Shown: piece by piece, positions 9,371 through 62,749 of the stretch | How the letters are laid out: the number at the start of each line of letters is the position of its first letter | How positions within the stretch are numbered: position 1 is the stretch's first letter | Virus record (IMG/VR): IMGVR_UViG_3300020048_000033 | Location: 21,156 to 85,155 of that record | Reading direction: 5' to 3' (one strand) | DNA from: a virus | Lineage: Duplodnaviria > Heunggongvirae > Uroviricota > Caudoviricetes | Length of the DNA stretch: 64,000 nt | Position numbers and translations under genes: made by a program | The notes under the pieces: generated by a model | What the model saw: only the letters and a program-made list of their open reading frames with translations | The model's database searches: none | Told to the model about the DNA's origin: nothing

Positions 9371-9409
9371 ATGTTAATATTACTAAGTAAAGACGTTAGA
9401 TAATTACTT

Positions 9410-9482
9410 GGCTCCGTAGCCCAAAGGCAGAGGCAAAGGACTTAAAATCCTTACAGTATGGGTTCGAGTCCCATGGGAGCTA
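9410..9482 (+). tRNA. tRNA, class I (short variable loop), anticodon UAA
   Basis: Acceptor GGCTCCG/GGGAGCT (one G-G mismatch at 7-66), T-arm ATGGG-TTCGAGT-CCCAT, anticodon stem AAGGA/TCCTT with loop CTTAAAA. Paralog of the tRNA at 16674. Confidence 0.45.
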
Positions 9483-9581
9483 TTAAAAATAATTGTGATA
9501 GAGTTTACTTTATTCGTTCTGGGAGATTCTTGTGTTTTTCTCTGTATACACAGAGGTGTTTCGGAAGAAAGTTCTGGTTGA

Positions 9582-12959: not shown

Positions 12960-13319
12960 ATGGATTCAGGAACTTTTGCGTCTATTAAGGATTACAAATC
13001 CTTAGCCTATGTTATGGATCAGATAAATAAAATGTTGGCATCAGATTCAGAAAAACATAACGCATATAAATTATCATTGTTTATTAATAAGTTTAATAAA
13101 GCTTGTATTCAGCTAGAAGTAATGAATGCTATCAATCACTTGGAAATAATTTTAAATGGTAGTTTTAATATACAACTTTTTGTTAACCTCATGTGGAAAG
13201 ACTATCAAGAAAAAATAGAAAAAGAACTAACATATATTAATGACCCAGTATTAATAAGTCACTTGAAAAATTTTATGTACACAAAATTAAAAGTTTCTGG
13301 TGGACTTATATCTTTGTGA
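12960..13319 (+). CDS. hypothetical protein
   Basis: ORF. Confidence 0.35.
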   Translation: MDSGTFASIKDYKSLAYVMDQINKMLASDSEKHNAYKLSLFINKFNKACIQLEVMNAINHLEIILNGSFNIQLFVNLMWKDYQEKIEKELTYINDPVLISHLKNFMYTKLKVSGGLISL

Positions 13320-13341
13320 AAATAAACCTTTGGAGGTTATT

Positions 13342-14340
13342 ATGAAAATTAAAGTGATTGGTTGCGGCGGAGCTTTCACCGAAGAACTTTATCATCAGTG
13401 TTTTATGCTTTCAGAAAATGGAAGAAACTTATTTATCGATTATGGACAACAGATTCAACCCTTTGCTCTTAAGAATGCAGGGTTAACTGTTAAAGATGTG
13501 GATGAAGTTATCATTACACATTGTCATGATGACCATGTTCTGTCCCTTGGAATGCTAGGGCTGAGACGGTATGACTTTATTAATAAACCTCAAAACTGTA
13601 AGGATACAAAGATTCCTTATGCGCCTAAATTGATTATTAATCATAACCTTTTATCGGAGATTAATGATATCACTAAGGGAAACTTTAGAACTATTGAAGG
13701 CTTTGTTTCTACACTTGATACTTTCTTTGATGTTAAGGTTCTCCAAGATAATGAGCCTTATTTTTTTGAGGGCTGGAAAGTAGATATGGTTCAACAGATT
13801 CATGTAATGACTGGATCAACCGTAATGTATTCCTATGGGGTATTTTTTGAAAAAGGGGATAAGTCCTTTTTAATTACCTCCGATACTCAATATTTTCAAC
13901 CTAGACAAGTACACTATTTTTATAAAAAAGCAAACTTAATTATCACAGATTGTGAAACAATTGGAACAAACTTTCAATTTCAAGAGGGTGAAAAGGTTTA
14001 CATTAAAGATGGAAAGCCCTATAGGTATCCTGTTCAAGCAGACGATCCCGATGGAATGAAATCTTTAGAAATTATGACTAAAGGATATGAAATAAAAGAT
14101 TGGGAATGTTTTAAGTTTATGTCTGGGGTTCATAGTTCCTATTGTGAGTTAGCTGGATATAAATCCGCTAATGCAATGATACTTTCCTCAGACATCAAAG
14201 ATAAGACCTGGTTATCCCATTATGGAGATCATGTTATTCATGGTGTTGATGCTTTCGGAAATAAAGTGGATTGGGACGCACAAGCTAAGAAAGATGGATT
14301 TGCAGGTTTTGTAAAACTTGGTCAGGTATTCGAAGTTTAA
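13342..14340 (+). CDS. metallo-beta-lactamase-fold hydrolase (RNase Z/PhnP-like)
   Basis: MKIKVIGCGGAF ... ITHCHDDH (HxHxDH zinc-binding motif) after the likely true start MKIKV at 13342. Confidence 0.55.
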   Translation: MKIKVIGCGGAFTEELYHQCFMLSENGRNLFIDYGQQIQPFALKNAGLTVKDVDEVIITHCHDDHVLSLGMLGLRRYDFINKPQNCKDTKIPYAPKLIINHNLLSEINDITKGNFRTIEGFVSTLDTFFDVKVLQDNEPYFFEGWKVDMVQQIHVMTGSTVMYSYGVFFEKGDKSFLITSDTQYFQPRQVHYFYKKANLIITDCETIGTNFQFQEGEKVYIKDGKPYRYPVQADDPDGMKSLEIMTKGYEIKDWECFKFMSGVHSSYCELAGYKSANAMILSSDIKDKTWLSHYGDHVIHGVDAFGNKVDWDAQAKKDGFAGFVKLGQVFEV

Positions 14341-16673: not shown

Positions 16674-16747
16674 GGCTCTGTAGCCCAACGGCAGGAGGCG
16701 AATGGCTTAGGACCATTACAGTGTCGGTTCGAATCCGACCCGAGCCA
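16674..16747 (+). tRNA. tRNA, class I, anticodon UAG (Leu-type anticodon; paralog of 9410)
   Basis: Acceptor GGCTCTG/CCGAGCC (one mismatch), T-arm GTCGG-TTCGAAT-CCGAC, anticodon stem AATGG/CCATT with loop CTTAGGA. Confidence 0.5.
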
Positions 16748-16754
16748 CAAACGT

Positions 16755-17104: not shown

Positions 17105-18490
17105 AACTAGTTCCACCTTAAAAGGTGGAATCTTCGTTTTTCGTTTCATCAAAACTGCTTTCAACTTTAGAAGATTCTAAAGCTAAAGAGGCAAGTTTCT
17201 CTACGGAGGCTTGTTCCAAGCACTCAGCTCTTTTAGTCGAGCCAAACAATTTCACATTCCTTGATGCATGAACATCCCGATCCTCGGTATATCCACAACT
17301 ACACTTATATGTCCTTTCACTTAACGGTATTGTATTCAACACTCCACAGCTTGGACAGTATTTCGTAGTTGGCATCCATTTACTGATTTTATAAGAACGA
17401 TCTGATTTCTCTAACTCAAGTAGCTTTGTTTTTACTCTTCCTAAATAGGAACTCTGAATAACTCTTGCAAACCCTTTGTTAGACTTCTTCCACTTTGACA
17501 ACTGCTCATCTTGAAAATATACTATATCATAGTCTTTCAGGAAATACGCAATCAGCTTGTTGGAATCATCTGTCTTCTTATTCGTTAAATGTTCGTACTC
17601 TTTCTTTATCTGTTTGAGACAATTATAGTATCGCTTTGACCCTTTTTCTTTCTTACTCAGCTTTCTTTGTAAGAACTTTAAATGGTCACTTTCTTGCACA
17701 CTACAATTGAATTTCTCTCCCTCAGATGTTGTTATGTTATCTTTAATTCCAAAGTCAAGTCCTACAGACTTACCTGTTTGTTCTCTCTTTTTAGAATCTT
17801 TTTCAATCATTATTGAAATGTTAATATATAATCCAGAAGCTTTTTTTATAAACTTGGCATTTGCTAATTCGTAGTTTGGATATTTCAGGAGCTGTTCCAG
17901 TCCGTACACTTTTAAATTTGCAAAGCCCGGTATTGTAATATGAGAGTTTCCACGAATTTTTAACCAAGGGCCAGTAATTATAGGAATACAATTAACTTCT
18001 TTTTTAAACTTAAGTCGTCCTACTTTGTTACCTTTCTTTTTAATTTTAGATAAAGTAACGATATCTTGTTTTTTTGATTGAACCAAAGCTCTGTGCATGA
18101 CAGAACTCAAAGTAATGTCTGAGATTACTTCATTTTTATCTTTATCGAAATGAGTTACTTTTTTATGTTCGAGATAATCATATTTGAAGATGTCAGTTGA
18201 ATTGAGCATATCATTTACAACCCACTTTGCTTGAGTGAAAGCGAAGTACATTTCAGATAATTTTTCTTTAGGGATTTGGTGAACATTGACTTTAAGTTCT
18301 AAGACTTTACAAGACTGATTTAGTCTACGGAGTTTAGTATTTTTAAGAGACTGTTTAATTTTATTGTTTGTATCTATTGATGACGGTCTCATATATTAAC
18401 TAACTCCTTATATTTAATTAGTTGTAGTTAATTAAAAGACTTATAGTTGGAAACTTCTTTATTCCACCTTAAAAGGATGGAATCTTACGA
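17105..18490 (-). mobile_element. IS200/IS605-family tnpB-only insertion element (IS1341-like)
   Basis: TnpB ORF is bracketed by near-identical subterminal hairpins in direct orientation (17109-17130 TTCCACCTTAAAAGGTGGAATC; 18462-18486 TTCCACCTTAAAAGGATGGAATC). No tnpA is present. Confidence 0.6.
17118..18392 (-). CDS. tnpB: TnpB (OrfB) RNA-guided endonuclease-like transposon protein
   Basis: C-terminal zinc finger CPSCG...CSCG followed by RuvC-III-like DRDVHASRNV. 424 aa. Confidence 0.75.
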   Translation of the reverse strand: MRPSSIDTNNKIKQSLKNTKLRRLNQSCKVLELKVNVHQIPKEKLSEMYFAFTQAKWVVNDMLNSTDIFKYDYLEHKKVTHFDKDKNEVISDITLSSVMHRALVQSKKQDIVTLSKIKKKGNKVGRLKFKKEVNCIPIITGPWLKIRGNSHITIPGFANLKVYGLEQLLKYPNYELANAKFIKKASGLYINISIMIEKDSKKREQTGKSVGLDFGIKDNITTSEGEKFNCSVQESDHLKFLQRKLSKKEKGSKRYYNCLKQIKKEYEHLTNKKTDDSNKLIAYFLKDYDIVYFQDEQLSKWKKSNKGFARVIQSSYLGRVKTKLLELEKSDRSYKISKWMPTTKYCPSCGVLNTIPLSERTYKCSCGYTEDRDVHASRNVKLFGSTKRAECLEQASVEKLASLALESSKVESSFDETKNEDSTF

Positions 18491-19453: not shown

Positions 19454-19740
19454 CGCAATCGGAAGAGGCACAAGACTCGGAAGATTCAGAAAAGGGTTGG
19501 ATATGAACCATAATAAAATATTCTAGTAGTGAAAGGGTTAGGTTACGCTTTTGCTAAAGTATATGTTATCCGTAGACATATGCGAATAACCTCCTTAGGC
19601 TAATACCTTTGGAAATTAAGGAACGGAAAAGCTTTTAGGTTTTAAATGTTTACCTACGTGTAAAGGTGAAAAACTGCCATTTTATTTCTTGTTGGGGTGG
19701 TACCCAACTTGAAGGATTTTGACAAGGGAAAGCGATTGGA

Positions 19741-19812
19741 TTTTCTATAAGCTCAGTGGATAGAGCTATGGTTTTTTAGCCGTGGTCGTTGGTTCGTGTC
19801 CAACTAGAAGAT
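19741..19812 (+). pseudogene. tRNA-like element with a degenerate anticodon arm (TTTTTT loop)
   Basis: Perfect D-arm GCTCAGTGGATAGAGC, T-arm GTTGG-TTCGTGT-CCAAC, acceptor TTTTCTA/TAGAAGA. No pairable anticodon stem. Confidence 0.3.
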
Positions 19813-20220
19813 TCCAGTGATGGTTTACAATTACCAATTGTGGCTATCTCCTTGTTATAAAGAACTTATTGCTAGGGTCAGGCTCCTCTATTGAGAGAGC
19901 GGAATAGTTGGTGTCGAAGCCAGCCTGACCAATAGAGGGGAAGTTCGAATGTCCCCTTGAATACGATATATTAAAGTATACGTTAATATATATTATCGAT
20001 ACCTATGAAGTTTTTTTGGAAAAACAGCGACTATAACGGTCGGAGACAGGGACGGTTCGATGCCCCCCTTAGGTAAAGGTTGATGACAAACCTTAAGTCA
20101 TTATAGAGAAATATTAAAAGGATGGATACAGATGAAACAGATCAAACGTATCCTCAAGAATACATAGCGGTTTTTAAGTCCGTGTATTTTTGAGGTAAAG
20201 CAAACACTTAAAAATATTAC

Positions 20221-21691: not shown

Positions 21692-21778
21692 CGAAGTTTC
21701 GTCCAGTGGTAAAAATGATGCATCATTAGGACAACACCTTAGGTGGTGGAAACATGGGTTCGATTCCCGTAGCTTCGA
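21692..21778 (+). ncRNA. tRNA-like gene with a palindromic hairpin (AATGATGCATCATT) inserted in the D-loop; anticodon loop ambiguous (CTTAGGT)
   Basis: Acceptor CGAAGTT/AGCTTCG and T-arm ATGGG-TTCGATT-CCCGT are canonical. Body is 87 nt with the insertion. Confidence 0.35.
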
Positions 21779-22400: not shown

Positions 22401-22473
22401 GCTTTGATAGACTAGTGGTAAGTCTCCCATCTTTTTTGATGGGAAAACAGAGGTTCGATTCCTCTTTAAGGCT
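22401..22473 (+). ncRNA. tRNA-like gene with poly-U anticodon loop (stem CCCATC/GATGGG, loop TTTTTT)
   Basis: D-arm GACTAGTGGTAAGTC, T-arm AGAGG-TTCGATT-CCTCT, acceptor GCTTTGA/TTAAGGC (2 wobbles). Possibly a UUU anticodon in a 6- or 8-nt loop. Confidence 0.35.
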
Positions 22474-25043: not shown

Positions 25044-25162
25044 GGGGCGGTAGCTTAGTTGGTAGAGCAACAGTATGTAACAAAAGAGGTTTGTAAAAAT
25101 CTCATACAGCGAGTAATAACAATTGGAACTGTGTGTCGGTGGTTCGAATCCACCCTGCCCCA
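25044..25162 (+). ncRNA. tRNA-like gene interrupted by a ~50-nt insertion carrying the ACAGCGAGTAA motif
   Basis: Acceptor GGGGCGG/CTGCCCC, D-arm GCTTAGTTGGTAGAGC, T-arm GGTGG-TTCGAAT-CCACC. Anticodon stem halves ACAG...CTGT are separated by CAAAAGAGGTTTGTAAAAATCTCATACAGCGAGTAATAACAATTGGAA. Confidence 0.4.
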
Positions 25163-26772: not shown

Positions 26773-27267
26773 ATGAACGCACAAGCAACAGAGACTAAAA
26801 CATTCAATGAAGTAGTATACGCTACTGATCGTACAACCTTTCTTTCAATGAAAGCACAACAAAAAGAAATATTTTCCGAGAGAAGAACTCATTCTTTAGA
26901 ACAGGAAAATACACGTCTTTGGAATGATTGGGTTTCAAAGAAACCTGTAGAGGTTGATCAATTCATTCAACATAAATGTGATATGGGACACTATCACAGT
27001 ATAACGAACCCTGACTACAAAGATTATAAAGTTATTCATGATTCTTGGAGAGCTTTAAAACCTTGTATTACAAACGGTGAGATATATACAAAGTCCTATG
27101 CAAGAAACTTTAACATTGTATACAGTATGATTAGAGGTAGAACTTACAAGCAGGTTGAATCAAAGGTTAGAGAAAACAATAAACCTGATTTGTACGAGAT
27201 AAAAAGAATTATAAAGGCTTTTAACTTAGATGAAACATTCTTTTTTGAGAATGGCGGTCTTAAATAA
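26773..27267 (+). CDS. hypothetical protein
   Basis: 164-aa ORF. Confidence 0.35.
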   Translation: MNAQATETKTFNEVVYATDRTTFLSMKAQQKEIFSERRTHSLEQENTRLWNDWVSKKPVEVDQFIQHKCDMGHYHSITNPDYKDYKVIHDSWRALKPCITNGEIYTKSYARNFNIVYSMIRGRTYKQVESKVRENNKPDLYEIKRIIKAFNLDETFFFENGGLK

Positions 27268-28352
27268 TGGCTGATTTAATTTCACAAAAAATAATTGTTA
27301 ACCTTCAAGCAAATATGCCTCAAGGTATAAATTACTCTCTACTAATTAATAGAGAGGAACTTATGGATATTTATAAGTTAACTAGTCCTTCAGGAAAAGT
27401 TTATATTGGAAAAGCTAAAGATGCAAATAATAGATGGAAAGGTCATTTAGCTAATTCTAAAAAAGAGGCTTGTAAAAGTCATCTTTGTTTAGCAATAAAA
27501 AAGTATGGTTTTGATTCTTTTAAAAAAGAAATAATCGACTTTGCTGAAACCGCTGAAGACTTAAATATAAAGGAACAATTTTGGATATCTTTTTTTGAAA
27601 GTAATAATAAAGAAAAAGGTTATAATTGTACAAAAGGTGGTGATGGTGGAGATACTTGGTCATATCTTACACCAGAACAAAAAGCTTTAGCTATTGCAAA
27701 AAGACCTCCTATGTCTAATGAAACTAAATTGAAACTCTCGGTTATACTTACAGAAAAATATAAACAGGTTAGTCATCCTAGTTGTGGAAAACCTTCTTGG
27801 AACAGCGGCCTAAAATCTGAATCTATACCGTGGAATAAAGGACAAACTTATTCAACTGGACCTAGGAGTGAAGAAACTTGTAGAAATATAAGTGAAAGCT
27901 TAAAAGGAAAACAGCTTTCAGAAGAACATAAATTAAGAATAAGTAATACACTAAAAGGAAGAATAAGGACAACTGAATCAATTGAGAAATCAAGTAAAGC
28001 ACATTGTGGTATTCCATTATCTGAAAGTCATAAAAAATCAATAAGTATTTCGTGTACTGGACGTGTAGTTTCAGAAGAAACTAGAAAAAAACAAAGTGAA
28101 TCAGCAATAGGAAGAGAACCTTGGAATAAAGGACTTAAAACTAACAAACAGTCTTGGAATAAAGGATTAGTTGTTGGAAATAGTACTCATTTTAAGATTA
28201 AAATCAAGTGTTTAGAAACTGATGATATTTTTAATTCAATTAAAGAAGCCGCAGAAAAATTAGATTCAAGTAGTAGTATGATAAGTATGCAACTTAGTGG
28301 AAAAAGAAAAAGTGCAAATGGCTTTCATTTTATAAAAGTGGAGGACAATTAA
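27267..28352 (+). CDS. GIY-YIG homing endonuclease with NUMOD3 DNA-binding repeats; first ~13 codons duplicate the start of the downstream gene
   Basis: GIY-YIG core DIYKLTSPSGKVYIGKAKDANNRWKGH ... FWISFFESNN. Repeated SEEHKLRISNTLKG / SEETRKKQSES motifs. N-terminal MADLISQKIIVNL is near-identical to the start of ORF 28353 (MADLISQKIVLNL). The true start is probably MDIYKL at 27363. Confidence 0.7.
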   Translation: MADLISQKIIVNLQANMPQGINYSLLINREELMDIYKLTSPSGKVYIGKAKDANNRWKGHLANSKKEACKSHLCLAIKKYGFDSFKKEIIDFAETAEDLNIKEQFWISFFESNNKEKGYNCTKGGDGGDTWSYLTPEQKALAIAKRPPMSNETKLKLSVILTEKYKQVSHPSCGKPSWNSGLKSESIPWNKGQTYSTGPRSEETCRNISESLKGKQLSEEHKLRISNTLKGRIRTTESIEKSSKAHCGIPLSESHKKSISISCTGRVVSEETRKKQSESAIGREPWNKGLKTNKQSWNKGLVVGNSTHFKIKIKCLETDDIFNSIKEAAEKLDSSSSMISMQLSGKRKSANGFHFIKVEDN

Positions 28353-28724
28353 ATGGCTGATTTAATTTCACAGAAAATAGTGCTTAATCTAAATACAACT
28401 TTTTCATTGGGGAGGCTTTCAGCCCAAAGCGCACATGCCAGTTGGATATCAGTTCTTGATCAAGGATATTGGGATAGTAATGATAATTTTGTCATTCCTT
28501 GTAAAACCAAACCTGAATTAAAGAGTTGGCTTTCTGGACAGTTTACAAAAGTTATGTTAAGAGGTTGGGGTGATGATATGCTTTTATCTTTAAGAGATAA
28601 GGCAGAAGAGAATGGAATCCCCTTTGGTTTAATGTCGGAGGATGGTTTTCATACTGCCCTTTCGATAGGTCCGGCTCTTACTAAAGACATCGATTTAACC
28701 ATCGGTAAATTACTCTTGTTATAA
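28353..28724 (+). CDS. peptidyl-tRNA hydrolase, PTH2 family-like
   Basis: GRLSAQSAHAS resembles the PTH2 G-K-I-A-A-Q-C-S-H-A-A active-site motif. C-terminal TALSIGPALTKDIDLTIGKL matches the PTH2 ...LGIGPGP..LID..TG.L end. Confidence 0.5.
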   Translation: MADLISQKIVLNLNTTFSLGRLSAQSAHASWISVLDQGYWDSNDNFVIPCKTKPELKSWLSGQFTKVMLRGWGDDMLLSLRDKAEENGIPFGLMSEDGFHTALSIGPALTKDIDLTIGKLLLL

Positions 28725-28740
28725 AATAAAATCGGGCTGT

Positions 28741-28762
28741 ATATATTTTTATATACAGCTCA
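28741..28762 (+). terminator. stem-loop (GCTGTATATA-ttttt-TATATACAGC) immediately after the PTH2-like gene
   Basis: Perfect 10-bp inverted repeat with a T-rich loop. No downstream T-tract, so it may be a processing signal rather than an intrinsic terminator. Confidence 0.35.
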
Positions 28763-28767
28763 CATAA

Positions 28768-28839
28768 GCCCCTATGGTGAAGAGGTATCATTTCGGAATC
28801 TAAATCTGATAGTCGAAGGTTCGATTCCTTCTAGGGGCA
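28768..28839 (+). tRNA. suppressor-type tRNA, anticodon CUA (reads UAG amber)
   Basis: Acceptor GCCCCTA/TAGGGGC perfect, T-arm GAAGG-TTCGATT-CCTTC, anticodon stem TCGGA/TCTGA with 7-nt loop ATCTAAA (U33 and A37 present). Anticodon C-T-A at 28800-28802. Confidence 0.65.
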
Positions 28840-29545: not shown

Positions 29546-29693
29546 GTACAGGTTGCTGTTGAACCATAAAATCATTTGAAGTTTTCCCCGTAAACATGGG
29601 GGTGTTTCTGTGACTCGATCTTCGAAGTTGAGTTAAATGAAAATAAATGGTGTCAACTTTCGGAGGTTCAAATCCTCCATTCCTGATTTTATT

Positions 29694-29778
29694 GGAGCGG
29701 TATGTTAGTGGCTATACAGGCGGCTTTGAATACCGTTTATACCGTGAGGTATCGTGAGTTCGAGTCTCACCCGCTCCG
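29694..29778 (+). tRNA. tRNA-Ser (anticodon UGA), class II
   Basis: Acceptor GGAGCGG/CCGCTCC perfect, anticodon loop TTTGAAT, variable-arm hairpin ATACC-GTGA-GGTAT, T-arm GTGAG-TTCGAGT-CTCAC. Confidence 0.6.
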
Positions 29779-29858
29779 TAGTTTATAACTAAAGGACATA
29801 ACTCTTTTAGAGTTACTTCTACTAATTAAGTATCTTTTTAATTGGTAGGTAGTCCGAA

Positions 29859-30563: not shown

Positions 30564-30800
30564 ATGAACTTTGTAGAAGCTTTAAAATTAGTAATGCAAG
30601 GAAAAAAAGTAATCTTGAAGAGCGTTCAGGATCAAGTAAATAAAATGGAGCTTAGAGGTCTATTATTTATTAGATTGTCTGACAATAAGGACTGCTTAGT
30701 TGCAGAATCTAAGCAAGGCTATATACAACCTTGGCCCTTTGAAGGTTGTACTAATCTTTTAAACTGGTATATAGCTGAAGATTGGATTGAAGTGGATTGA
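30564..30800 (+). CDS. hypothetical protein
   Basis: 78-aa ORF. Confidence 0.3.
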   Translation: MNFVEALKLVMQGKKVILKSVQDQVNKMELRGLLFIRLSDNKDCLVAESKQGYIQPWPFEGCTNLLNWYIAEDWIEVD

Positions 30801-30809
30801 AGTGGAGTG

Positions 30810-30843
30810 AAAGGTACCGTGGGTTCGAATCCCACCCGCTCCG
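30810..30843 (+). pseudogene. tRNA 3'-half fragment (T-arm GTGGG-TTCGAAT-CCCAC + acceptor strand CCGCTCC)
   Basis: Identical acceptor 3' strand to tRNA-Ser(UGA) at 29694. No 5' half is present. Confidence 0.35.
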
Positions 30844-31205: not shown

Positions 31206-31484
31206 ATGGGAATTAATTTTGATGGTATGGAAGAGTTTGCCGATTCTTCTTGTTTTGGAGAAGCCAGACATCTTGCTTCTGAGTATCATGGCGGTCAGTG
31301 GTCTGACCTTTATAAGCTTTCCTGTGGAAAGTGGGATGCGTGGGAACGCTCAGATGTAGAAGGTATGATTCTTGAATTTGAAAAATGCAAAGAGTTTGCT
31401 TCTGCTGAGGATGAATCAAATATAGATGAAGCACTTGATTGCTTACTATCTGCACTTGAGTTTTATCCAGAGGAAGAAGAATAG
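31206..31484 (+). CDS. hypothetical acidic protein
   Basis: 92-aa ORF. Confidence 0.3.
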   Translation: MGINFDGMEEFADSSCFGEARHLASEYHGGQWSDLYKLSCGKWDAWERSDVEGMILEFEKCKEFASAEDESNIDEALDCLLSALEFYPEEEE

Positions 31485-42853: not shown

Positions 42854-45283
42854 ATGAATTCTATTAAACCTACTTATTTATTTCCTGAGTTAGTGGCACA
42901 CCCTCCATCAAATGACAATCCTGTTAGTCAGTCTTTAGAAGAACACTTACAAGGGACTAATGAATATGCTTTATCCTTTTGTCAAAGTGAAACAGACAAG
43001 GCTTTAGTGTCTCCAATAGCTCTTGGACATGACATTGCAAAAACAACAACTTGGGTTAAAGAACATTTATGTCCTAGCTGTTGGTCTAAAAATAAAGACT
43101 TAAACCGATGTAAAGGGTGTGGATTAAAAAACCCTACTGGAAAGGATAGCCGACAAATATATCATTCACCTTATGGGGTTTTATATATGTTACTTAATTC
43201 TGTAACATCAGAGGGAAAAAAAATATTTGATATAAATCGTCTCAGAACGGAAGAGTGGGTATATTATAATATTGTGGGAGGACACCATGGAGGTTTAATG
43301 GATACTGACACTATTCAACAGAGAGTTCTTGAGATGATGTCAGATCCTAACACCCCAAATATTTTGAAAGAGATAGATTCTTTTGTAAAGTCTACAAATA
43401 TTTCTACTTCTCCAACAATTAAGTTTCCTTATAATAGGGATGATACCTTCTTTGATTTCTTTATAAAAATTAAAGAGGTATTTTCAATTCTTTGTGATGC
43501 TGACTCTTTAGATACTGAGGGACACAGTTCTCCTTCTAAAAAAGATTTTAGAAAACCCCCTAAAATTGAATGGACAAACCTTTTACAATGCTTAGATGAA
43601 TATTATTTAACTCTTTCTTTGGATGAAAACGGTAAACAAAAAAAGAGTAAGTGGAAACAAAAAAAACTTAATAAGCTTAGAAATGAATTAAGAGTGTATT
43701 CCGATAAAATTGCTTCTGCTTTTTCAAGAGGATATTTTTCAATGGAGTTTCCTACAGGGTTTGGTAAAACACTGGCAAGTATTTCTTTTGCTCTTAATCA
43801 TGCAATAAATATTGAAAAGAGAGGTGAAAGACCCATTAAAAGAATTATTTATGTCCTCCCCTTTTTGACAATAACTGCACAGACCACAAATGTACTTAAA
43901 GAGGTTTTTGGTGACGATATTAACATTTTAGAGCATCACACAGGGGCAGAATATGCTCTTAATGGTGATGATAGGAAATCTGAATATGAGCAAGCAACTT
44001 CTGATAAGGATAAAAGAAAAATACTGGCAACAGAGAATTGGGATTACCCTATAATTGTTACCACGGATGTTCAATTTTTTGAATCCGTTATGTCTGCTAA
44101 TAGAGGTTCTTCTCGTAAGATTCATAACATAGCTGATTCTATTGTTATCCTAGATGAAATACAAGTTATCTCTAACTCACTTTGGGCACCCACAATTGAA
44201 ATTCTTAAATCACTTAACAAAGTTTTAAATACTTCTATACTTTTTACTTCTGCTACTATGCCAGCATTTTCTTGGGAAAACCAGAAGTTAAAGTTTGATG
44301 GAGTTACCTCTTTAGTTGAAGATAAACAAACTCTTTATAGAAACAGCGTTCGAGTAAAATACCATGTACTTAACAATCTAAAGCCTCTTACCATTAATGA
44401 ATTAAGTACAAGGATTTTTAAGGAAAAGGGTTCCACTTTATTGGTGCTTAATACTAGGAGAACAGCTTTTGGGGCATATAGAGAACTGTGTAAGTTAAAC
44501 TCTAATAATAAATGGGATAAAATAATTTATTTAAATACCGTATTAAACTCTAAGCATCGTATGAACCTTATTAATTCTATTAAAAAAATACTGAAAGATG
44601 ATAAGTTAAAAATATTGGTTGTATCTACTCAACTGATTGAAGCCGGTGTAGATTTAGATTTTTATAATGTTTTTCGTAAAATAGCCCCATTAGAATCCCT
44701 TATTCAAAGCTCAGGAAGATGCAATAGAGAGTGGAAATATCCTTATGGGAATGTTTACATTTTTGATATTATTGATACTTTTAAGTGTGATCCTTGGTCA
44801 GACAGCTACATAGAGAGAATAGCAATAGTAGTTAATTTACTAAGAAGAACAAACTTTCTTAAATATTTTAGCCCCTTTGATTTAGGTAAATTACATAAGA
44901 GTGATATCTATGAGGAATATCATAAAAAATGCTTTTCTATTATGAGTTCTGATAAAAATAAGGTTCTAACTTCCATAAAAGCTTGCAACTTTAAAACAGC
45001 ATCTAATAATTATAAAATAATAGATTCTGAGACATCAGGGGTTGTAGTACCTTATGGAGACCTAACTTTAGATGAATATGAATATTATAGAAATAAAGAA
45101 ACAATCACAAGGGCAGACCTTAGACGACTTCAACCATATATGGTTTCTTTATTTGAGGGTGACTTAAAGAAGGTAGAAGGGATACAAATTGTAAGGACTG
45201 TAGGGAATTTATTAATGCTCAGTAAAAACCATTTGAATTGTTATAGTGAGGAAACAGGCTTATCTAATTTAATTTTTAATTAG
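42854..45283 (+). CDS. cas3: Cas3 (HD nuclease + SF2 helicase), type I
   Basis: N-terminal HD domain (HPPS...LEEHL...ALGHDIAKTT...GGHHGG), helicase motif I FPTGFGKT, motif II VILDEIQ, motif III TSATMP, C-terminal helicase lobe. 809 aa. Preceded by TTGTTAATATAGT. Confidence 0.85.
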   Translation: MNSIKPTYLFPELVAHPPSNDNPVSQSLEEHLQGTNEYALSFCQSETDKALVSPIALGHDIAKTTTWVKEHLCPSCWSKNKDLNRCKGCGLKNPTGKDSRQIYHSPYGVLYMLLNSVTSEGKKIFDINRLRTEEWVYYNIVGGHHGGLMDTDTIQQRVLEMMSDPNTPNILKEIDSFVKSTNISTSPTIKFPYNRDDTFFDFFIKIKEVFSILCDADSLDTEGHSSPSKKDFRKPPKIEWTNLLQCLDEYYLTLSLDENGKQKKSKWKQKKLNKLRNELRVYSDKIASAFSRGYFSMEFPTGFGKTLASISFALNHAINIEKRGERPIKRIIYVLPFLTITAQTTNVLKEVFGDDINILEHHTGAEYALNGDDRKSEYEQATSDKDKRKILATENWDYPIIVTTDVQFFESVMSANRGSSRKIHNIADSIVILDEIQVISNSLWAPTIEILKSLNKVLNTSILFTSATMPAFSWENQKLKFDGVTSLVEDKQTLYRNSVRVKYHVLNNLKPLTINELSTRIFKEKGSTLLVLNTRRTAFGAYRELCKLNSNNKWDKIIYLNTVLNSKHRMNLINSIKKILKDDKLKILVVSTQLIEAGVDLDFYNVFRKIAPLESLIQSSGRCNREWKYPYGNVYIFDIIDTFKCDPWSDSYIERIAIVVNLLRRTNFLKYFSPFDLGKLHKSDIYEEYHKKCFSIMSSDKNKVLTSIKACNFKTASNNYKIIDSETSGVVVPYGDLTLDEYEYYRNKETITRADLRRLQPYMVSLFEGDLKKVEGIQIVRTVGNLLMLSKNHLNCYSEETGLSNLIFN

Positions 45284-45335
45284 CCCCTTATTTATCTATA
45301 TTTCTTGTTCCAGAAACTGCTAAAATAATTAGTGA

Positions 45336-45382
45336 AAAAGTTTTGAACTTTTCCTGAATATCCTATATATTATATAGGTAGA
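45336..45382 (+). promoter_or_regulatory. class A promoter-like motif, copy 5 (between cas3 and cas5c)
   Basis: AAAAAGTTTTGAACTTTTCCTGAATATCCTATATATTATATAGG. Confidence 0.5.
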
Positions 45383-45481
45383 GTTCTATTGAATATTAAA
45401 CCTCAATACACTTAATTAAACAAATGTACTTGTCAAAAATATGTCAAGTACATTATACACTCTAAAAAGGATTAAACTTAA

Positions 45482-46156
45482 ATGAATGCAATATCCTCAA
45501 AATATGGTGCTCTTAAATCAAGGGTAGAGCTTGTGGCTTATGGAGAAAACGCTTGCTTTAAGGACCCAGTATGGAAAACAGAGGGTCTTACCTACCCATG
45601 TATCACCCCATCGGCTTCAAGAGCTATACTAGAGTCGGTGTTTTGGCATCCTCCGATGTATTATGATATTGTGTCAATAGAGGTTTTAAAGCCTATAATA
45701 AAAACACTGACCTGTGTAGTTGAACCCAATACCTATGGTATAGACGGAGTTTTGAGACACTATATGTATCTAAGAGATGTATCCTATCATATTGTTGCTG
45801 ATATAGTTATGAAGAATGGTGTCACAATAGATGAAAATAAAAATGCAATAAAGTATATGAGTATTTTTAATAGGAGACTACAGAAAGGTCAAACTTTTAA
45901 GGCTCCTTTCCTCGGAATAAGTCAATGCTTATGTGATGTTAGGGAATATGTTCCTCTTGAGGATATCCCTACAAAAGAAAATTATTATATAGGAAATATG
46001 CTATTAGAGATGAATCATAAAAAATCTGGGGTAGAGCCAATATTTATGGATGAGGCTCAAATAAAAAATGGCGTACTTTGTAATGGGGAACAGTCCCTTG
46101 AAGACGCCATACTAGAAAAAACATCTTATAGAAAAGAGGAAGTGTATATTGCGTGA
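45482..46156 (+). CDS. cas5c: Cas5c (Cas5d) crRNA-processing subunit, type I-C
   Basis: Family-conserved blocks VELVAYGENACFKDP, ASRAILESVFWHP, HYMYLRDVSYHIVADI, FKAPFLGISQC align with Cas5d. Confidence 0.8.
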   Translation: MNAISSKYGALKSRVELVAYGENACFKDPVWKTEGLTYPCITPSASRAILESVFWHPPMYYDIVSIEVLKPIIKTLTCVVEPNTYGIDGVLRHYMYLRDVSYHIVADIVMKNGVTIDENKNAIKYMSIFNRRLQKGQTFKAPFLGISQCLCDVREYVPLEDIPTKENYYIGNMLLEMNHKKSGVEPIFMDEAQIKNGVLCNGEQSLEDAILEKTSYRKEEVYIA

Positions 46157-48128
46157 ACTTTATGATTTTTACAAGGTGTATTCCACTACTGAAACTTTCA
46201 AGGAAAATTACGACAGTAGTATTTGGTTTGATAGAGGTACGCCCTCAGCAATTATTGATATTGATAAGAACCATAAGACTACCTTCCTACCACTTGGAGG
46301 AGACTCAGCTAAACTTCATCGTAGAGAATTCTTCCCGGGGAAAGGTACAAGATTTTCATTAGATGCTACTAAAAGGGTTTTAGGTGGTATTGAGGTTAAT
46401 GACAAGGACGGTTCTTTTACTTTTGAAGAAAACTTTGGGTCGGAAGTTTTATCTCAGGTAACAGCTATATTAAAGTATAAAAATTATTTCTTAGATAATC
46501 TTTCTCTTTTTACAAAAAAAGAAGTTTTAGTAGCACAGGAAATTTTTGATGCAATACTTTCAATATATGTAAGTCCTAAGTGTAAAGATTTTTCTGATAT
46601 TAAGGTTTCAAAAACCTTAAAGAAACTAAGAAAAGATTTCTGCACCCATTTTAAGGATGATAAAAATGTTGAAGGTAAACTTATAGGTATCTCTTATCAA
46701 GGAGAGCTAATTCTTGAAAATAAAGTAATTTCCAAGATTGTAGAGAGTTTTAAAGAGTATGAGTTGGGTCTTATAAATAAGAAAACTCCTTTTAGAAATT
46801 GTCCCATTTGTAAAAAAAACACAAACCTTTATAATATTAATTCCTATGGGGCTATAAGAAAAAGTTTACTAGGTGGAAGTATTAATGGGTGTTTTCCCAT
46901 TAGTTACAATGAACCACAATTTGAGTCTTATGGAATGAAAGGTAACTTAAACTCATCAATTTGTTATGATTGTGGAAAAAAAATTGTAAGGTCTTTAGAA
47001 ATACTTTGTGGGATAGACAAAATATATGTCCCCTTCAAGAACTCTAAAGGTGAAGACAAGTTAAAGCCCTCATTTAAGGAGACTCGTTTCAGATTGGATG
47101 TCCGTGGCGCAAATGAATATGCTATTCTGGTATATGCGACAGATGCTAATGGGAGAGTCTTGGATATGACTAAAGAAATATCCTTAGATACTGTTAGAGA
47201 AGTTGATTTGAAATTAGATGAGTCCTCTATTATTTCTTCCTATAAAAGTTTAAATGATAGTAGTTCTTCCAGTGAAGCAATAATCCCACTTAATATTACA
47301 GCCAATATTCTTGTGGTAGCATCAAATAGTGCAAGAATGGTAATAAGAGATCATTGTTGTATTAATCTTAATAGCTTAAGGAGTTCCATTTCTCGTTGGA
47401 GGGAAGCTACCCAAGGACAAACCTTTGAGGGATATGTTGATGCTAAAGGAAACCAAAAATGGAGGGCTATAAAATATTATCCTTCACTTAATACTATCTT
47501 AGAAAACTTAGGTGCTTTTGGTAAAAATGATAAAGTTTATTATTCTGTAATAGATACAGTTCAACAAATGGTGTTTCGTGGAATAACTGAAAATATTTCT
47601 TTTAAGGATACAATACTTAATAACATTCAATCCTCTTTCTTTACAAGAGGGGATAGACAGTATGAAATATCTAAGGATTCATTCTGTGTTGTACGTTTGG
47701 TTTATAATGCGGGTAAGAATAAGGAGAGTTTGATGAGTCCGAGTCTTGATGAGACTAATGAAAAAATGGGGTATCTTTTTGGGAGAGCTTTTTCTATAGC
47801 ATCTTCTATTATGTATCATGTAAATGATAAAGATACTTATGGTATTGATTCTCTTTATGATCAATGTTTGTCACAACCTAAATTGGCTATAGAAAACATA
47901 ACCAGTTCTTTAATGTATTATGTATCTAAGGGTAAAAAAGACCCTGATATAGGATTTTTTATTGTATCCCTTCACAATAAGTATATGGAACTTATTTCTA
48001 AAGCATTGCAGGTGGGAGTTCCTATCATAATGAAACAGGACGATAAACTACTTTTTATTGGTGGAATGTGTTCACAAAATATGTATAATAAAACTGGTGG
48101 AAAAACCACTAAAGTAAAGGAAGACTAA
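46149..48128 (+). CDS. cas8c: Cas8c (Csd1) large subunit, type I-C
   Basis: 659-aa ORF overlapping the cas5c stop by 8 nt, in the position and with the size expected for Cas8c. Internal CxxC...CxxC zinc-finger-like pairs. Confidence 0.65.
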   Translation: MRELYDFYKVYSTTETFKENYDSSIWFDRGTPSAIIDIDKNHKTTFLPLGGDSAKLHRREFFPGKGTRFSLDATKRVLGGIEVNDKDGSFTFEENFGSEVLSQVTAILKYKNYFLDNLSLFTKKEVLVAQEIFDAILSIYVSPKCKDFSDIKVSKTLKKLRKDFCTHFKDDKNVEGKLIGISYQGELILENKVISKIVESFKEYELGLINKKTPFRNCPICKKNTNLYNINSYGAIRKSLLGGSINGCFPISYNEPQFESYGMKGNLNSSICYDCGKKIVRSLEILCGIDKIYVPFKNSKGEDKLKPSFKETRFRLDVRGANEYAILVYATDANGRVLDMTKEISLDTVREVDLKLDESSIISSYKSLNDSSSSSEAIIPLNITANILVVASNSARMVIRDHCCINLNSLRSSISRWREATQGQTFEGYVDAKGNQKWRAIKYYPSLNTILENLGAFGKNDKVYYSVIDTVQQMVFRGITENISFKDTILNNIQSSFFTRGDRQYEISKDSFCVVRLVYNAGKNKESLMSPSLDETNEKMGYLFGRAFSIASSIMYHVNDKDTYGIDSLYDQCLSQPKLAIENITSSLMYYVSKGKKDPDIGFFIVSLHNKYMELISKALQVGVPIIMKQDDKLLFIGGMCSQNMYNKTGGKTTKVKED

Positions 48129-48129
48129 A

Positions 48130-49191: not shown

Positions 49192-49203
49192 CTTTTTGAG
49201 TAA

Positions 49204-49256
49204 ATTGGAGTTATTTTTATTAAGTGCGAACCTACTGTTACCAGAAAATCCCTTGG
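49204..49256 (+). promoter_or_regulatory. leader-region stem-loop (GTGCGAACC...GGTTCGCAC) between cas7c and the array
   Basis: 9-bp inverted repeat. A second GAGGTTCGCACTAAG copy lies 70 nt downstream. Could be the cas-operon terminator/attenuator or a leader structure. Confidence 0.3.
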
Positions 49257-49367
49257 AGGTTCGCACTCCTTGCCCTGTATAGACTTAGGTGATTTTATAT
49301 TAAAAAACTTGGTTACAAACTATCATAATTCTGAGGTTCGCACTAAGTATAGGGTAAGTCTATATCA

Positions 49368-49389
49368 TGTAAGGGTTTATATATTAGTA
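49368..49389 (+). promoter_or_regulatory. array promoter-like element (AAGGGTTTATATATTAGTA) abutting repeat 1
   Basis: Same GGTT(A/T)ATATA..TTAGTA motif that precedes every variant-repeat unit. Confidence 0.4.
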
Positions 49390-50956: not shown

Positions 50957-50992
50957 GTAATATCAGAGGATAGTCTGTAATATTTTCTTAAT

Positions 50993-51020
50993 CACCACAA
51001 TCCTCTTGGGATTGTGGTGA
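50993..51020 (+). terminator. perfect 10-bp stem-loop (CACCACAATC-ctcttgg-GATTGTGGTG) after the last array repeat
   Basis: Inverted repeat seen directly in the sequence. No strong T-tract follows. Confidence 0.3.
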
Positions 51021-51054
51021 AGATGTGTAAGTGAAATTAAAATTAGGGTTAATA

Positions 51055-60060: not shown

Positions 60061-60465
60061 ATGATCAAACAGGTACTAATTGTAAACAAGAAATTGGGTA
60101 TGGGGCGTGGAAAAGTTGGGTCACAATGCGGTCACGGAGCAACAAAAGTTTTTTTCGACCGAGGAACTATCACAGAAGTAAAGGATAATGTAGAAGCACC
60201 TTACATGATGCACATTCCTCTTACCAAAGAAATGCACGAATGGGTTAAGGGTATTTTTACCAAAATTGTTTTGTATGTAAACTCCGATGAAGAACTTCGT
60301 GAATTGAAAAGACGGGCTGATGAAATGGGGATTGTAAATGCTATCATTGAGGATTGTGGTCTTACTGCATTTCATGGTATACCTACAAGAACTGTTCTTG
60401 CAATTGGCCCAGACAATGCAACTAGGATTGATTCGTTGACCAGTGGACTTCCACTTCTCAACTAA
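60061..60465 (+). CDS. peptidyl-tRNA hydrolase, PTH2 family
   Basis: GMGRGKVGSQCGHGA matches the PTH2 G-M-G-K-G-K-I-A-A-Q-C-S-H-A active-site motif. C-terminal TVLAIGPDNATRIDSLTSGLPL matches the PTH2 end. Start placed at MIKQVLIV, because the longer ORF overlaps the tRNA-Arg. Confidence 0.6.
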   Translation: MIKQVLIVNKKLGMGRGKVGSQCGHGATKVFFDRGTITEVKDNVEAPYMMHIPLTKEMHEWVKGIFTKIVLYVNSDEELRELKRRADEMGIVNAIIEDCGLTAFHGIPTRTVLAIGPDNATRIDSLTSGLPLLN

Positions 60466-62576: not shown

Positions 62577-62627
62577 TAAATCTCTTTAGTGAACTAATTG
62601 TTTTATTAGAAAAAAGACTTAATACTT

Positions 62628-62698: not shown

Positions 62699-62749
62699 TA
62701 CAAAAATTCCTTATATCCCTTTATAAGGTGGAAAGAAATAGGAGATAGG

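What the first reader, a model, noticed from the sequence alone, without database searches (positions are those of the whole stretch)
28768..28839. Suppressor-type tRNA with anticodon CUA (amber reader)
A well-folding 72-nt tRNA (perfect acceptor GCCCCTA/TAGGGGC, canonical T-arm, 5-bp anticodon stem, 7-nt loop ATCTAAA with U33/A37) carries anticodon CTA. Large phages that recode TAG (for example to Gln) in late genes carry such tRNAs. Alternatively it could be a nonsense suppressor used to manipulate host translation termination. Genes in this window look intact under the standard code, so any recoding would be confined to genes outside this window.
Basis: partly seen in the sequence, partly recalled or inferred. 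Interest (0 to 1): 0.8.

Follow-up and report, generated by a model that had tools for sequence, protein, structure and literature searches.

The report
Phage amber-suppressor tRNA with hydrolase partner
A large phage carries a genuine, evolutionarily conserved tRNA that reads the stop codon UAG, a known phage trick for changing the genetic code, and in most related sequences found here it sits next to an unusual peptidyl-tRNA-hydrolase-like gene, a pairing I found no report of.

Summary
Window 28768-28839 (+) is a canonical 72-nt tRNA with anticodon CUA (ARAGORN; Rfam tRNA 59.9 bits, E 2e-10). It is not a pseudogene. Versions at the same gene position or linked to the same neighbour gene exist in eight other phage contigs. 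Across these, 18 of 21 stem pairs show compensatory changes, while CUA, A37, A38, G1-C72 and discriminator A73 never vary.

The window is part of a 163.8-kb phage contig at 35% GC. It carries about 31 tRNAs, a type I-C CRISPR-Cas system and two PTH2 genes. I could not test whether late genes of this genome contain in-frame TAG, because the rest of the contig is not retrievable. More distant relatives include standard-code, TAG-recoded (TAG=Gln) and TGA-recoded lineages.

The new element is a cassette: a divergent PTH2 paralogue ("PTH2-A"), then a strong hairpin, then the tRNA(CUA). PTH2-A has Arg in place of the catalytic Lys and an 8-residue deletion in the catalytic loop. The tRNA accompanies 8 of the 9 distinct PTH2-A loci with enough flanking sequence, down to 33% protein identity.

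The acceptor stem is not Gln-like, so the inserted amino acid is unresolved. Verdict: a known kind (phage suppressor tRNA) in a previously undescribed conserved context.

The parts
28768..28839 (+). tRNA with anticodon CUA (amber suppressor type). Canonical type I cloverleaf, A37 A38, discriminator A73, no encoded CCA.
   Evidence: ARAGORN. Rfam 59.9 bits. Related tRNAs in L007, L010, L011, L079, L228, L229, L230 and L311, with 18 of 21 pairs showing compensatory changes.
28734..28761 (+). 12-bp hairpin (GGGCUGUAUAUA UUUU UAUAUACAGCUC) between the PTH2-A stop codon and the 5' end of the tRNA, with no U tract on the + strand.
   Evidence: RNAfold gives -16.6 kcal/mol, the strongest of all 31 tRNA 5' flanks in the window. 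Hairpins of different sequence occupy the same position in L007, L010, L011, L079, L229 and L230. The terminator-like call is on the minus strand only.
28353..28724 (+). PTH2-A: a divergent peptidyl-tRNA hydrolase 2 paralogue (123 aa). Arg replaces the conserved Lys of the G-K-x-x-A-Q-x-x-H-A motif, and about 8 residues are deleted in the D-x-G-x-T loop.
   Evidence: Pfam PF01981, E 1.2e-11. Profile matches archaeal Pth2 structures 2zv3, 1wn2 and 1xty. The signature is conserved in all 7 aligned PTH2-A sequences. Small subfamily: 24 representatives at E<=1e-10 among 1.84 billion.
27267..28352 (+). GIY-YIG homing endonuclease inserted at the 5' end of PTH2-A. Its first 8 residues (MADLISQK) duplicate the PTH2-A N-terminus. 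It is absent from L010 and L011.
   Evidence: Pfam GIY-YIG, NUMOD3 and I-HmuI NUMOD-like domains. tblastn self-hit. Translation. Gene order in L010 and L011.
60061..60465 (+). PTH2-B: a second PTH2 gene with the canonical motifs (G-K and full loop), lying between tRNA-Arg(ACG) and tRNA-Arg(UCU).
   Evidence: Pfam PF01981, E 2.6e-25. Located by phmmer. Aligned. Orthologues in L007 and L011.

Best explanation
The locus encodes a functional phage amber-suppressor tRNA.

Expression. The tRNA lies in a tRNA-rich region written in the standard code, which I take to be expressed before the late genes. It most likely lies on one transcript with the upstream PTH2-A gene. RNase P cleavage at the tRNA 5' end would then leave the PTH2-A mRNA ending in the conserved hairpin. 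That step is inferred.

Charging. A host aminoacyl-tRNA synthetase would charge the tRNA, since no synthetase is encoded in the window. A host CCA-adding enzyme would add the CCA end, since none is encoded.

Function. The tRNA competes with release factor 1 and inserts an amino acid at UAG. The most likely purpose is the one known from code-15 phages: to allow translation of TAG-containing late genes elsewhere in the genome, so that these are made only once the tRNA has accumulated.

Partner protein. PTH2-A accompanies this tRNA family in nearly every locus I could examine. I infer it is a dedicated accessory acting on the acylated 3' end of tRNA(CUA). It could recycle peptidyl-tRNA(CUA) that drops off, or remove a wrong or blocked aminoacyl group. 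Its altered catalytic residues leave open whether it hydrolyses or only binds.

Shown versus inferred.
- Shown: the tRNA is real, is conserved under purifying selection together with its CUA anticodon, and is linked to PTH2-A and a hairpin.
- Inferred: co-transcription, suppression in vivo, recoding of late genes, the amino acid inserted, and the role of PTH2-A.
For: tRNA reality and selection:
- Predictor and Rfam calls.
- Nine sequences found by synteny or through PTH2-A, not through the tRNA itself. They keep CUA, A37, A38, G1-C72, C4-G69 and A73, while 18 of 21 pairs change compensatorily. The same picture holds in a set of 14 sequences.
- Hosts span 35-55% GC.

Linkage to PTH2-A:
- PTH2-A relatives retrieved with protein patterns alone all have tRNA(CUA) 30-770 nt downstream. 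These are L102 (same contig as L079) and L228, L229, L230, confirmed.
- The same holds in the window, L010 and L011.
- In L311/L312 the tRNA is 32 nt from the PTH2-A stop but on the opposite strand.
- More distant PTH2 genes that lack this close similarity have no CUA tRNA next to them (L103-L107).

Hairpin.

PTH2-A signature.

Context fits known code-change biology:
- Suppressor tRNAs in recoded phages are encoded in standard-code regions (Borges et al., bioRxiv 10.1101/2021.08.26.457843).
- The helicase-defined wider lineage contains TAG-recoded loci, with TAG aligned to Gln.
- Intron-bearing tRNAs, reported as typical of alternatively coded jumbo phages (PMC13037316), occur in the window (25044-25162).
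Against: - No in-frame TAG was found in any convincing gene in about 75 kb of this phage, or in the early regions of relatives that carry the tRNA.
- TAG is used as a real stop, for example by Cas3 and the DNA polymerase.
- There is no enrichment of back-up stops after TAG (p 0.32).
- No RF2, glutaminyl-tRNA synthetase or theta ribozyme was found.
- The nearest relatives whose late genes I could read are standard-code: the L009 type (helicase 46% identical), L099 and L100. I do not know whether they carry the tRNA.
- Three relatives are 50-55% GC, which is atypical for recoded phages.
- PTH2-A lacks residues that I recall as catalytic in archaeal Pth2, so it may be inactive.
- L007 keeps the tRNA without PTH2-A, though its copy has C33 and two stem mismatches. 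One PTH2-A locus (L314) has no tRNA within 242 nt.
Confidence: 0.55

Rival explanations
1. The phage uses the standard code throughout and still carries a working suppressor. The tRNA gives low-level UAG read-through, either of host genes or of the phage's own TAG-terminated genes. Alternatively it is the pre-adaptive stage that Borges et al. propose precedes recoding. No late gene depends on it.
For: - All sequence of this phage that could be read is standard-code, and TAG serves as a true stop.
- The late-gene loci of the nearest relatives that could be read are standard-code.
- GC-rich relatives keep the tRNA.
- Standard-code relatives that have acquired a suppressor tRNA are described in the Borges preprint, there for TGA.
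Against: - Strict conservation of CUA, A37 and A38 across lineages whose PTH2-A proteins are only 33% identical argues for a selected decoding role rather than a transient intermediate.
- Read-through of TAG-terminated early genes shows no compensating back-up stops.
Confidence: 0.33
2. The tRNA and PTH2-A form a counter-defence or ribosome-rescue module rather than a code-change device. PTH2-A would clear peptidyl-tRNA or N-blocked aminoacyl-tRNA generated by host tRNA-targeting defences. The CUA tRNA would rescue ribosomes or escape a nuclease, as proposed for other phage tRNAs.
For: - PTH2 is widespread in jumbo phages and has been interpreted as a ribosome-rescue factor after tRNA cleavage (Iyer et al. 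2021, PMC7824862).
- The window is rich in conflict systems: CRISPR-Cas I-C, a PARP-like protein and an Apyc1-like metallo-beta-lactamase.
- Other PTH2 genes sit in tRNA arrays.
Against: - A CUA anticodon has no sense codon to serve, so nuclease escape does not explain it.
- The specific pairing is with the non-canonical PTH2-A, not with the canonical PTH2-B.
Confidence: 0.08
3. The gene is a decaying or mis-called tRNA: a pseudogene, a tRNA-Pyl, or an Arg tRNA with a shifted anticodon loop. It would have no suppressor function.
For: - ARAGORN labels it Pyl.
- The acceptor and D arm resemble phage tRNA-Arg(YCU). My pattern scan picked up 30 Arg tRNAs with the same acceptor.
- The L007 copy has C33 and two stem mismatches.
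Against: - It has a canonical cloverleaf with G18 G19, T-loop, 5-bp anticodon stem and 5-nt variable loop, unlike tRNA-Pyl.
- The register of CUA at positions 34-36 is fixed by the stems in all copies.
- It lacks A20 and C35, which I recall as the Arg identity elements.
- There is strong compensatory covariation (18 of 21 pairs).
Confidence: 0.03

Closest known systems
Suppressor tRNA(CUA) of stop-codon-recoded gut phages: crAss-like, Lak and the 'gemstone' clades, genetic code 15 (Borges et al. 2021/22; Peters et al. 2022)
   Same: A phage-encoded tRNA with anticodon CUA, lying in a standard-code, tRNA-rich part of a large low-GC phage. The wider lineage, defined by helicase and prohead protease, includes Lak-like TAG-recoded phages.
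   Different: Recoding is not demonstrated for this genome. No RF2 was found. The acceptor stem and discriminator (G1-C72, A73) are not those of a Gln tRNA. The tRNA is linked to a PTH2-like gene, and none of the recoding papers I searched mentions a peptidyl-tRNA hydrolase.
'Code change module' of Jade phages: suppressor tRNA, TrpRS and RF1 upstream of the lysis cassette (Borges et al.)
   Same: A suppressor tRNA physically clustered with a translation-factor gene, all written in the standard code.
   Different: The partner here is a divergent PTH2 paralogue, not a synthetase or a release factor. The stop codon is UAG, not UGA. No lysis genes are nearby.
Theta (minimal HDV-like) ribozymes at the 3' end of phage suppressor tRNAs (Kienbeck et al. 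2024, PMC10879173)
   Same: A conserved cis element abuts a phage tRNA(CUA) that lacks an encoded CCA.
   Different: The element here is a simple hairpin on the 5' side. No HDV-like hit or P1 pairing is present 3' of the tRNA.
PTH2 of jumbo phages (Iyer et al. 2021, PMC7824862)
   Same: A Pfam PF01981 fold family encoded among phage tRNA genes. PTH2-B in this window fits that description.
   Different: PTH2-A has Arg for the conserved Lys and a shortened catalytic loop. It forms a small subfamily, with about 16 representative clusters showing the signature. It is specifically adjacent to tRNA(CUA).
Laboratory amber suppressors derived from E. coli tRNAs (supE Gln; Lys-inserting CUA derivatives of Arg, Ile, Thr tRNAs). 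Recalled from Normanly, Kleina, McClain and colleagues, not checked here.
   Same: A type I tRNA body with a CUA anticodon. U35 and A73 are the main LysRS determinants, and U35 is also a GlnRS determinant.
   Different: This is a natural, conserved phage gene. The host synthetase rules are unknown.

Membership tests
tRNA (Rfam RF00005), canonical type I elongator | Cloverleaf with 7/4/5/5-bp stems and the conserved core (U8, A14, G18 G19, U33, G53 T54 T55 C56, A58, C61) | tested here: met
   Comparative support.
Phage amber-suppressor tRNA of code-15 phages | Anticodon CUA at positions 34-36 in a phage genome | tested here: met
   Phage-like gene content.
Phage amber-suppressor tRNA of code-15 phages | In-frame TAG at sense positions of conserved (late) genes of the same genome | not testable with these tools
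   No in-frame TAG in real genes in the window or in L002/L003. The rest of the 163.8-kb contig is not retrievable.
Phage amber-suppressor tRNA of code-15 phages | Glutamine identity of the tRNA body | tested here: inconclusive
   The anticodon and T arms resemble phage tRNA-Gln (Acibel004, 80% over positions 6-66). But G1-C72 and A73 differ from the window's Gln tRNA at 62627-62699, which reads U1-A72 with G73. No isotype model was available.
Phage amber-suppressor tRNA of code-15 phages | Accessory RF2 and/or a dedicated synthetase (present in some members only) | tested here: not met
   No RF or aminoacyl-tRNA synthetase domain among the 82 proteins scanned from the window.
Theta-ribozyme-associated suppressor tRNA | Minimal HDV-like ribozyme with its cleavage site within 5 nt of the tRNA 3' end | tested here: not met
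   No HDV-like Rfam hit at E<=1. No 7-bp P1 candidate in the window or in most relatives. The authors' own descriptor was not run.
tRNA-Pyl | 6-bp anticodon stem, 3-nt variable loop, small D loop without G18 G19, non-canonical T loop (recalled from memory) | tested here: not met
   Sequence read shows a 5-bp stem, 5-nt variable loop, G18 G19 and TTCGA.
PTH2 (Pfam PF01981), applied to PTH2-A | Significant match to the family profile over its full length | tested here: met
   45.2 bits against a cutoff of 23, positions 3-115 of 115. Matches to solved Pth2 structures.
PTH2 (Pfam PF01981), applied to PTH2-A | Conserved Lys of the G-K-x-x-A-Q motif and an intact D-x-G-x-T-x loop. I recall these as catalytic in archaeal Pth2. 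| tested here: not met
   Arg in all 7 aligned PTH2-A sequences and an 8-residue gap relative to PTH2-B and to a recalled Sulfolobus solfataricus Pth2 sequence. The same region is gapped against solved archaeal Pth2 chains. The top database hits share the signature.

The most novel reading that the evidence does not exclude
PTH2-A and tRNA(CUA) form a minimal, mobile two-gene 'amber-decoding cassette'. PTH2-A would be a re-specialised PTH2-fold protein that acts specifically on the acylated end of the suppressor tRNA. It could edit a mis-attached amino acid, recycle dropped-off peptidyl-tRNA(CUA), or gate when suppression switches on. It would thereby determine the fidelity or timing of UAG reassignment. 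That would be a new protein component of natural genetic-code switching.
Probability: 0.3. Interest if true: 0.8.

Novelty: new variant of a known kind. Interest (0 to 1): 0.5.

Why it matters
Phage suppressor tRNAs are the known route by which gut phages switch an infected cell to another genetic code. Two questions remain open: how the tRNA gets charged with the right amino acid, and how the timing of the switch is controlled.

A small PTH2-like protein with altered active-site residues almost always travels with one family of amber-suppressor tRNAs. This holds across phages from 35 to 55% GC, in either gene orientation, and with its own conserved hairpin. That makes it a concrete, testable candidate for a missing protein factor.

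The tRNA itself conserves A73 and G1-C72. This questions the default assumption that TAG means Gln in such phages. It also offers a natural orthogonal-looking suppressor pair for synthetic biology.

If the genome turns out to use the standard code throughout, the locus would be a well-conserved example of suppression without recoding. That would also be informative for models of how recoding evolves.

Tried and rejected
1. Retrieving the rest of the genome. Look-ups of window proteins return only short Logan fragments (L001-L003), and the 163.8-kb contig is never shown. The tRNA is absent from IMG/VR and from the JGI collection.
2. Close relatives in GenBank phages. None by megablast. DNA polymerase hits are at most 27% identical. 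Two other CUA tRNA types are also absent there.
3. The word-based protein search with PTH2-A found only the query itself.
4. Host identification from the CRISPR repeat. There was no exact hit. A 4-N degenerate pattern hit 120+ arrays in many phyla, which is uninformative.
5. An all-against-all search for in-frame TAG aligned to sense codons was swamped by shadow-frame matches. No real case emerged in the window's close relatives.
6. Back-up stop codons after TAG are not enriched (p 0.32). Two TAG stops are in frame with the next gene (742-1005 into 1006-1614; 31206-31484 into the SPFH gene). This is no more than chance, and the arrangement is not conserved.
7. The prohead-protease route to late genes gave good positive controls (Lak-like, recoded) and standard-code relatives. 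None of these contigs is one known to carry this tRNA.
8. IMG/VR has no helicase more than 47% identical to the window's.
9. A tmRNA-like element next to the cassette exists in L010 but not in the window. The window has a 3' half of a Ser tRNA instead.
10. The 'tRNA-SeC(UCA)' in L010 is a Glu-like tRNA with an abnormal loop, not a clean opal suppressor.
11. My first tRNA pattern was too strict, and the second also caught tRNA-Arg(YCU).
12. Structure prediction was not attempted. Only the single window sequence could be submitted, and a single-sequence model was judged unlikely to be reliable.

Full report
**1. The observation**

ARAGORN finds 28 tRNAs in the window. One lies at 28768-28839 (+) and has anticodon CTA. 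Rfam's tRNA model matches the same coordinates end to end at 59.9 bits (gathering score 29, E 1.9e-10). Rfam also adds three tRNAs that ARAGORN misses.
- a 7-bp acceptor GCCCCUA/UAGGGGC
- a 5-bp anticodon stem
- the loop AUCUAAA with U33 and A37
- a canonical T arm

It further shows A38, G18 G19, a 5-nt variable loop, discriminator A73 and no encoded CCA. The 'Pyl' label is only ARAGORN's name for the anticodon. The structure is that of an ordinary type I tRNA, not of tRNA-Pyl.

**2. The setting**

The window is 35% GC, and nearly all its genes are on the + strand. Pfam and PHROGs identify the following:
- homing endonucleases
- an SPFH protein, a DUF2828/DUF7788 protein and a Rad3-like helicase
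- a TnpB gene
- a PARP-like protein
- two PTH2 peptidyl-tRNA hydrolases
- a type I-C CRISPR-Cas effector set (Cas3, Cas5, Cas8c, Cas7) followed by an array of about 28 repeats

The source is a 163,769-bp contig held by JGI, ENA and Logan. Nothing similar exists among GenBank phages.

The helicase and the prohead protease place the phage in a broad lineage of large gut and environmental phages. This lineage includes common ~297-kb human-gut phages and Lak-like megaphages.

**3. Is TAG recoded?**

Under the standard code, 97 non-overlapping ORFs cover the window apart from RNA genes and small gaps. Their stop codons are TAA 54, TGA 26 and TAG 17. Among genes of at least 100 aa the counts are 42, 12 and 4.
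- Treating TAG as sense lengthens ORFs no more than treating TGA or TAA as sense does.
- TAG-terminated genes include Cas3 and the DNA polymerase.
- The 10 kb downstream and 1.6 kb upstream of the window, recovered from Logan fragments, are equally intact.
- No release factor or aminoacyl-tRNA synthetase domain occurs in the 82 window proteins scanned.
- Back-up stops after TAG are not enriched.

The remaining roughly 88 kb of the contig could not be reached, so recoding of late genes is untested.

My coverage test does detect recoding where it exists:
- Lak-like loci jump from 0.55 to 0.86 coverage only when TAG is read as sense. Their TAG codons align with Gln.
- Late-gene loci of the L009 type, L099 and L100 are standard-code.
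- Helicase-defined relatives in IMG/VR are a mixture of standard, TAG-recoded and TGA-recoded loci.

This matches the mixed-code clades described by Borges et al..

**4. The tRNA is conserved and under selection**

Relatives found through the helicase (55-57% identical) have the same gene order in this region. Each has a tRNA(CUA) at the same place:
- L010 7861-7935, Rfam 68.5 bits
- L011 3210-3280, Rfam 61.1 bits
- L007 5225-5296, Rfam 43.6 bits, missed by ARAGORN, with C33 and two stem mismatches

The three phages are 50-55% GC, against 35% here.

Further copies were found through the neighbouring protein rather than the tRNA: L079, L228, L229, L230 and L311. In the resulting nine-sequence alignment, 18 of 21 stem pairs show compensatory double changes. 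G1-C72, C4-G69, C34 U35 A36, A37, A38 and A73 are invariant. A 14-sequence set gives 15 of 21 pairs. This excludes a pseudogene and shows selection on the amber anticodon itself.

**5. Amino-acid identity is unresolved**

The anticodon and T arms resemble phage tRNA-Gln. The acceptor and D arm resemble phage tRNA-Arg(YCU).

The tRNA lacks A20 and C35, which I recall as the Arg determinants. It also lacks the U1-A72 and G73 seen in the window's Gln tRNA at 62627-62699. From memory of E. coli identity rules, a CUA tRNA with U35 and A73 tends to be charged by LysRS or GlnRS. Only aligned in-frame TAG positions or mass spectrometry can settle which amino acid is inserted.

**6. The conserved partner**

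Directly upstream lies a 123-aa PTH2-family protein, PTH2-A (28353-28724; Pfam E 1.2e-11).

In L010 and L011 the same gene sits 26-28 nt before the tRNA.

Searches with a PTH2-A protein alignment were blind to the tRNA. They returned L102 (the same contig as L079) from IMG/VR, and L228, L229 and L230 from JGI metagenomes. These are 61%, 39% and 33% identical to the window protein. All have a tRNA(CUA) 30-770 nt downstream.

A representative found by exhaustive HMMER search (P0222, 44% identical) has the tRNA 32 nt from its stop, but on the opposite strand behind a shared hairpin. Of three further loci, two are too short to judge and one has no tRNA within 242 nt.

Five more distant PTH2 genes have no CUA tRNA beside them. 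Three CUA tRNAs with different acceptor stems in other relatives have no PTH2 gene nearby.

All seven aligned PTH2-A sequences carry Arg where PTH2-B and archaeal Pth2 have Lys in the G-K-x-x-A-Q-x-x-H-A motif. All lack about eight residues of the D-x-G-x-T loop. The subfamily is tiny. It has 24 representatives at E<=1e-10 among 1.84 billion, and the best ~16 share the signature.

The window also encodes a canonical PTH2-B (60061-60465) between two Arg tRNAs.

**7. The hairpin and the homing endonuclease**

Between the PTH2-A stop and the tRNA lies a 12-bp hairpin (28734-28761, -16.6 kcal/mol). It is the strongest structure in any of the 31 tRNA 5' flanks of the window. Hairpins of unrelated sequence, often with GNRA or UUCG loops, occupy the same position in L007, L010, L011, L079, L229 and L230. 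There is no U tract on the coding strand.

I therefore infer one transcript. RNase P cleavage would leave an mRNA ending in a protective stem-loop.

In the window, a GIY-YIG homing endonuclease has been inserted at the 5' end of PTH2-A and duplicates its first eight codons. In L007 a related endonuclease sits at that position and PTH2-A is missing.

No theta ribozyme follows the tRNA. Theta ribozymes are the known cis partner of phage suppressor tRNAs (PMC10879173).

**8. Interpretation**

The best-supported reading is a functional amber suppressor that belongs to a conserved cassette: PTH2-A, hairpin, tRNA(CUA). By analogy with code-15 phages, the tRNA most likely enables stage-specific translation of TAG-containing genes elsewhere in the genome. 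The main rival is suppression without recoding.

PTH2 genes in jumbo phages are known (PMC7824862). Suppressor tRNAs in recoded phages are well documented. I found no paper linking the two. 'Peptidyl' occurs zero times in the two recoding papers I searched directly, and 'peptidyl-tRNA hydrolase' occurs zero times in the phage recoding papers listed.

**9. Verdict**

The tRNA is a new member of a known kind. The conserved pairing with a re-specialised PTH2 paralogue and a 5' hairpin makes the locus a new variant worth an experiment.

My confidence by step:
- about 0.9 that the tRNA is functional
- about 0.5-0.55 that this genome uses TAG as a sense codon
- about 0.6 that PTH2-A is functionally coupled to the tRNA
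- about 0.3 that PTH2-A acts specifically on tRNA(CUA)

Noticed in passing
window 42854-51350: A phage-encoded type I-C CRISPR-Cas effector set: Cas3 42854-45283, Cas5 45482-46156, Cas8c/Csd1 46149-48128, Cas7 48130-49191. It is followed directly by an array of about 28 repeats (GTCACTCCCCGTGCGGGGGTGTGGATTGAAAC). No Cas1, Cas2 or Cas4 was seen. The relative L007 lacks this whole insertion.
   Followed up: partly
window 50486-51219: Three copies of a 69-nt AT-rich unit, each ending in GTGGATTGAAAC, lie at 50486, 51030 and 51151. They are interspersed in the distal, degenerate part of the CRISPR array and look like duplicated leader or hybrid repeat units.
   Followed up: no
window 25044-25162 and 21692-21778: Two tRNAs found only by Rfam carry insertions. 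One is a 119-nt type I tRNA with anticodon GUA (Tyr-like) and about 46 extra nt just 3' of the anticodon, which looks like an intron. The other is an 87-nt tRNA with an insertion in the D loop. Intron-bearing tRNAs are reported as typical of alternatively coded jumbo phages (PMC13037316).
   Followed up: partly
window 19740-19816 and 22401-22473: Two tRNAs have anticodon loops that are not 7 nt long (ARAGORN anticodons 'tt' and 'tttt'). They may be frameshift-type or degenerate Lys-like tRNAs.
   Followed up: no
window 9409-9483 and 16674-16748: Two similar 75-nt tRNAs have Leu anticodons (UAA, UAG) but short variable loops (type I). This is unlike bacterial tRNA-Leu, so their identity is unclear.
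   Followed up: no
window 60061-60465: A second, canonical PTH2 gene (PTH2-B) is wedged between tRNA-Arg(ACG) and tRNA-Arg(UCU). The same arrangement, beside an Arg tRNA, occurs in L007 and L011.
   Followed up: partly
window 27267-28352: A GIY-YIG/NUMOD homing endonuclease begins with the first 8 residues of PTH2-A (MADLISQK). This suggests it homes into the 5' end of the PTH2-A gene. A related endonuclease sits at the PTH2-A position in L007, where PTH2-A is missing.
   Followed up: partly
L002 2020-5040 (just downstream of the window): The family A DNA polymerase is split into two adjacent same-frame ORFs in permuted order. A 294-aa ORF matching the C-terminal part of the polymerase precedes a 707-aa ORF with the exonuclease domain and the N-terminal part of the polymerase. 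The same arrangement is seen in L007.
   Followed up: no
window 30800-30843: An orphan 3' half of a tRNA (T arm plus acceptor CCGCUCC-G) matches the 3' end of tRNA-Ser(UGA) at 29693-29779. It looks like a remnant of a tRNA duplication or rearrangement.
   Followed up: partly
L010 9024-9149: A 126-nt element matches both ends of the Rfam tmRNA model (51 bits, above the gathering score) with only 55 nt in between. It appears to be a mini tmRNA-like tRNA-like domain, lying about 1.1 kb downstream of the tRNA(CUA), directly after tRNA-Ser(UGA). There is a weak equivalent in L007 (21 bits) and none in the window.
   Followed up: partly
window 29-589, 13300-14340, 17118-18392(-): Three other conflict-type genes are present: a PARP catalytic-domain protein (E 7e-24), a metallo-beta-lactamase-fold protein with a sub-threshold match to anti-Pycsar Apyc1, and a TnpB/OrfB gene, one of the few sizeable ORFs on the minus strand.
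   Followed up: no
L231-L310 (IMG/VR loci around helicase homologues): The helicase-defined wider lineage mixes genetic codes. Several loci are clearly TAG-recoded (for example L246, L249, L281 and the Lak-like L247-L252). Others are TGA-recoded (L294-L298, L303, L304). Most are standard-code.
   Followed up: partly
L013-L080 (IMG/VR): At least a dozen distinct phage tRNA(CUA) sequences share the acceptor GCYCC.../...GGGGC with A73. The same acceptor is typical of phage tRNA-Arg(UCU/CCU). This hints that this suppressor type arose from an Arg tRNA by change of the anticodon loop.
   Followed up: partly
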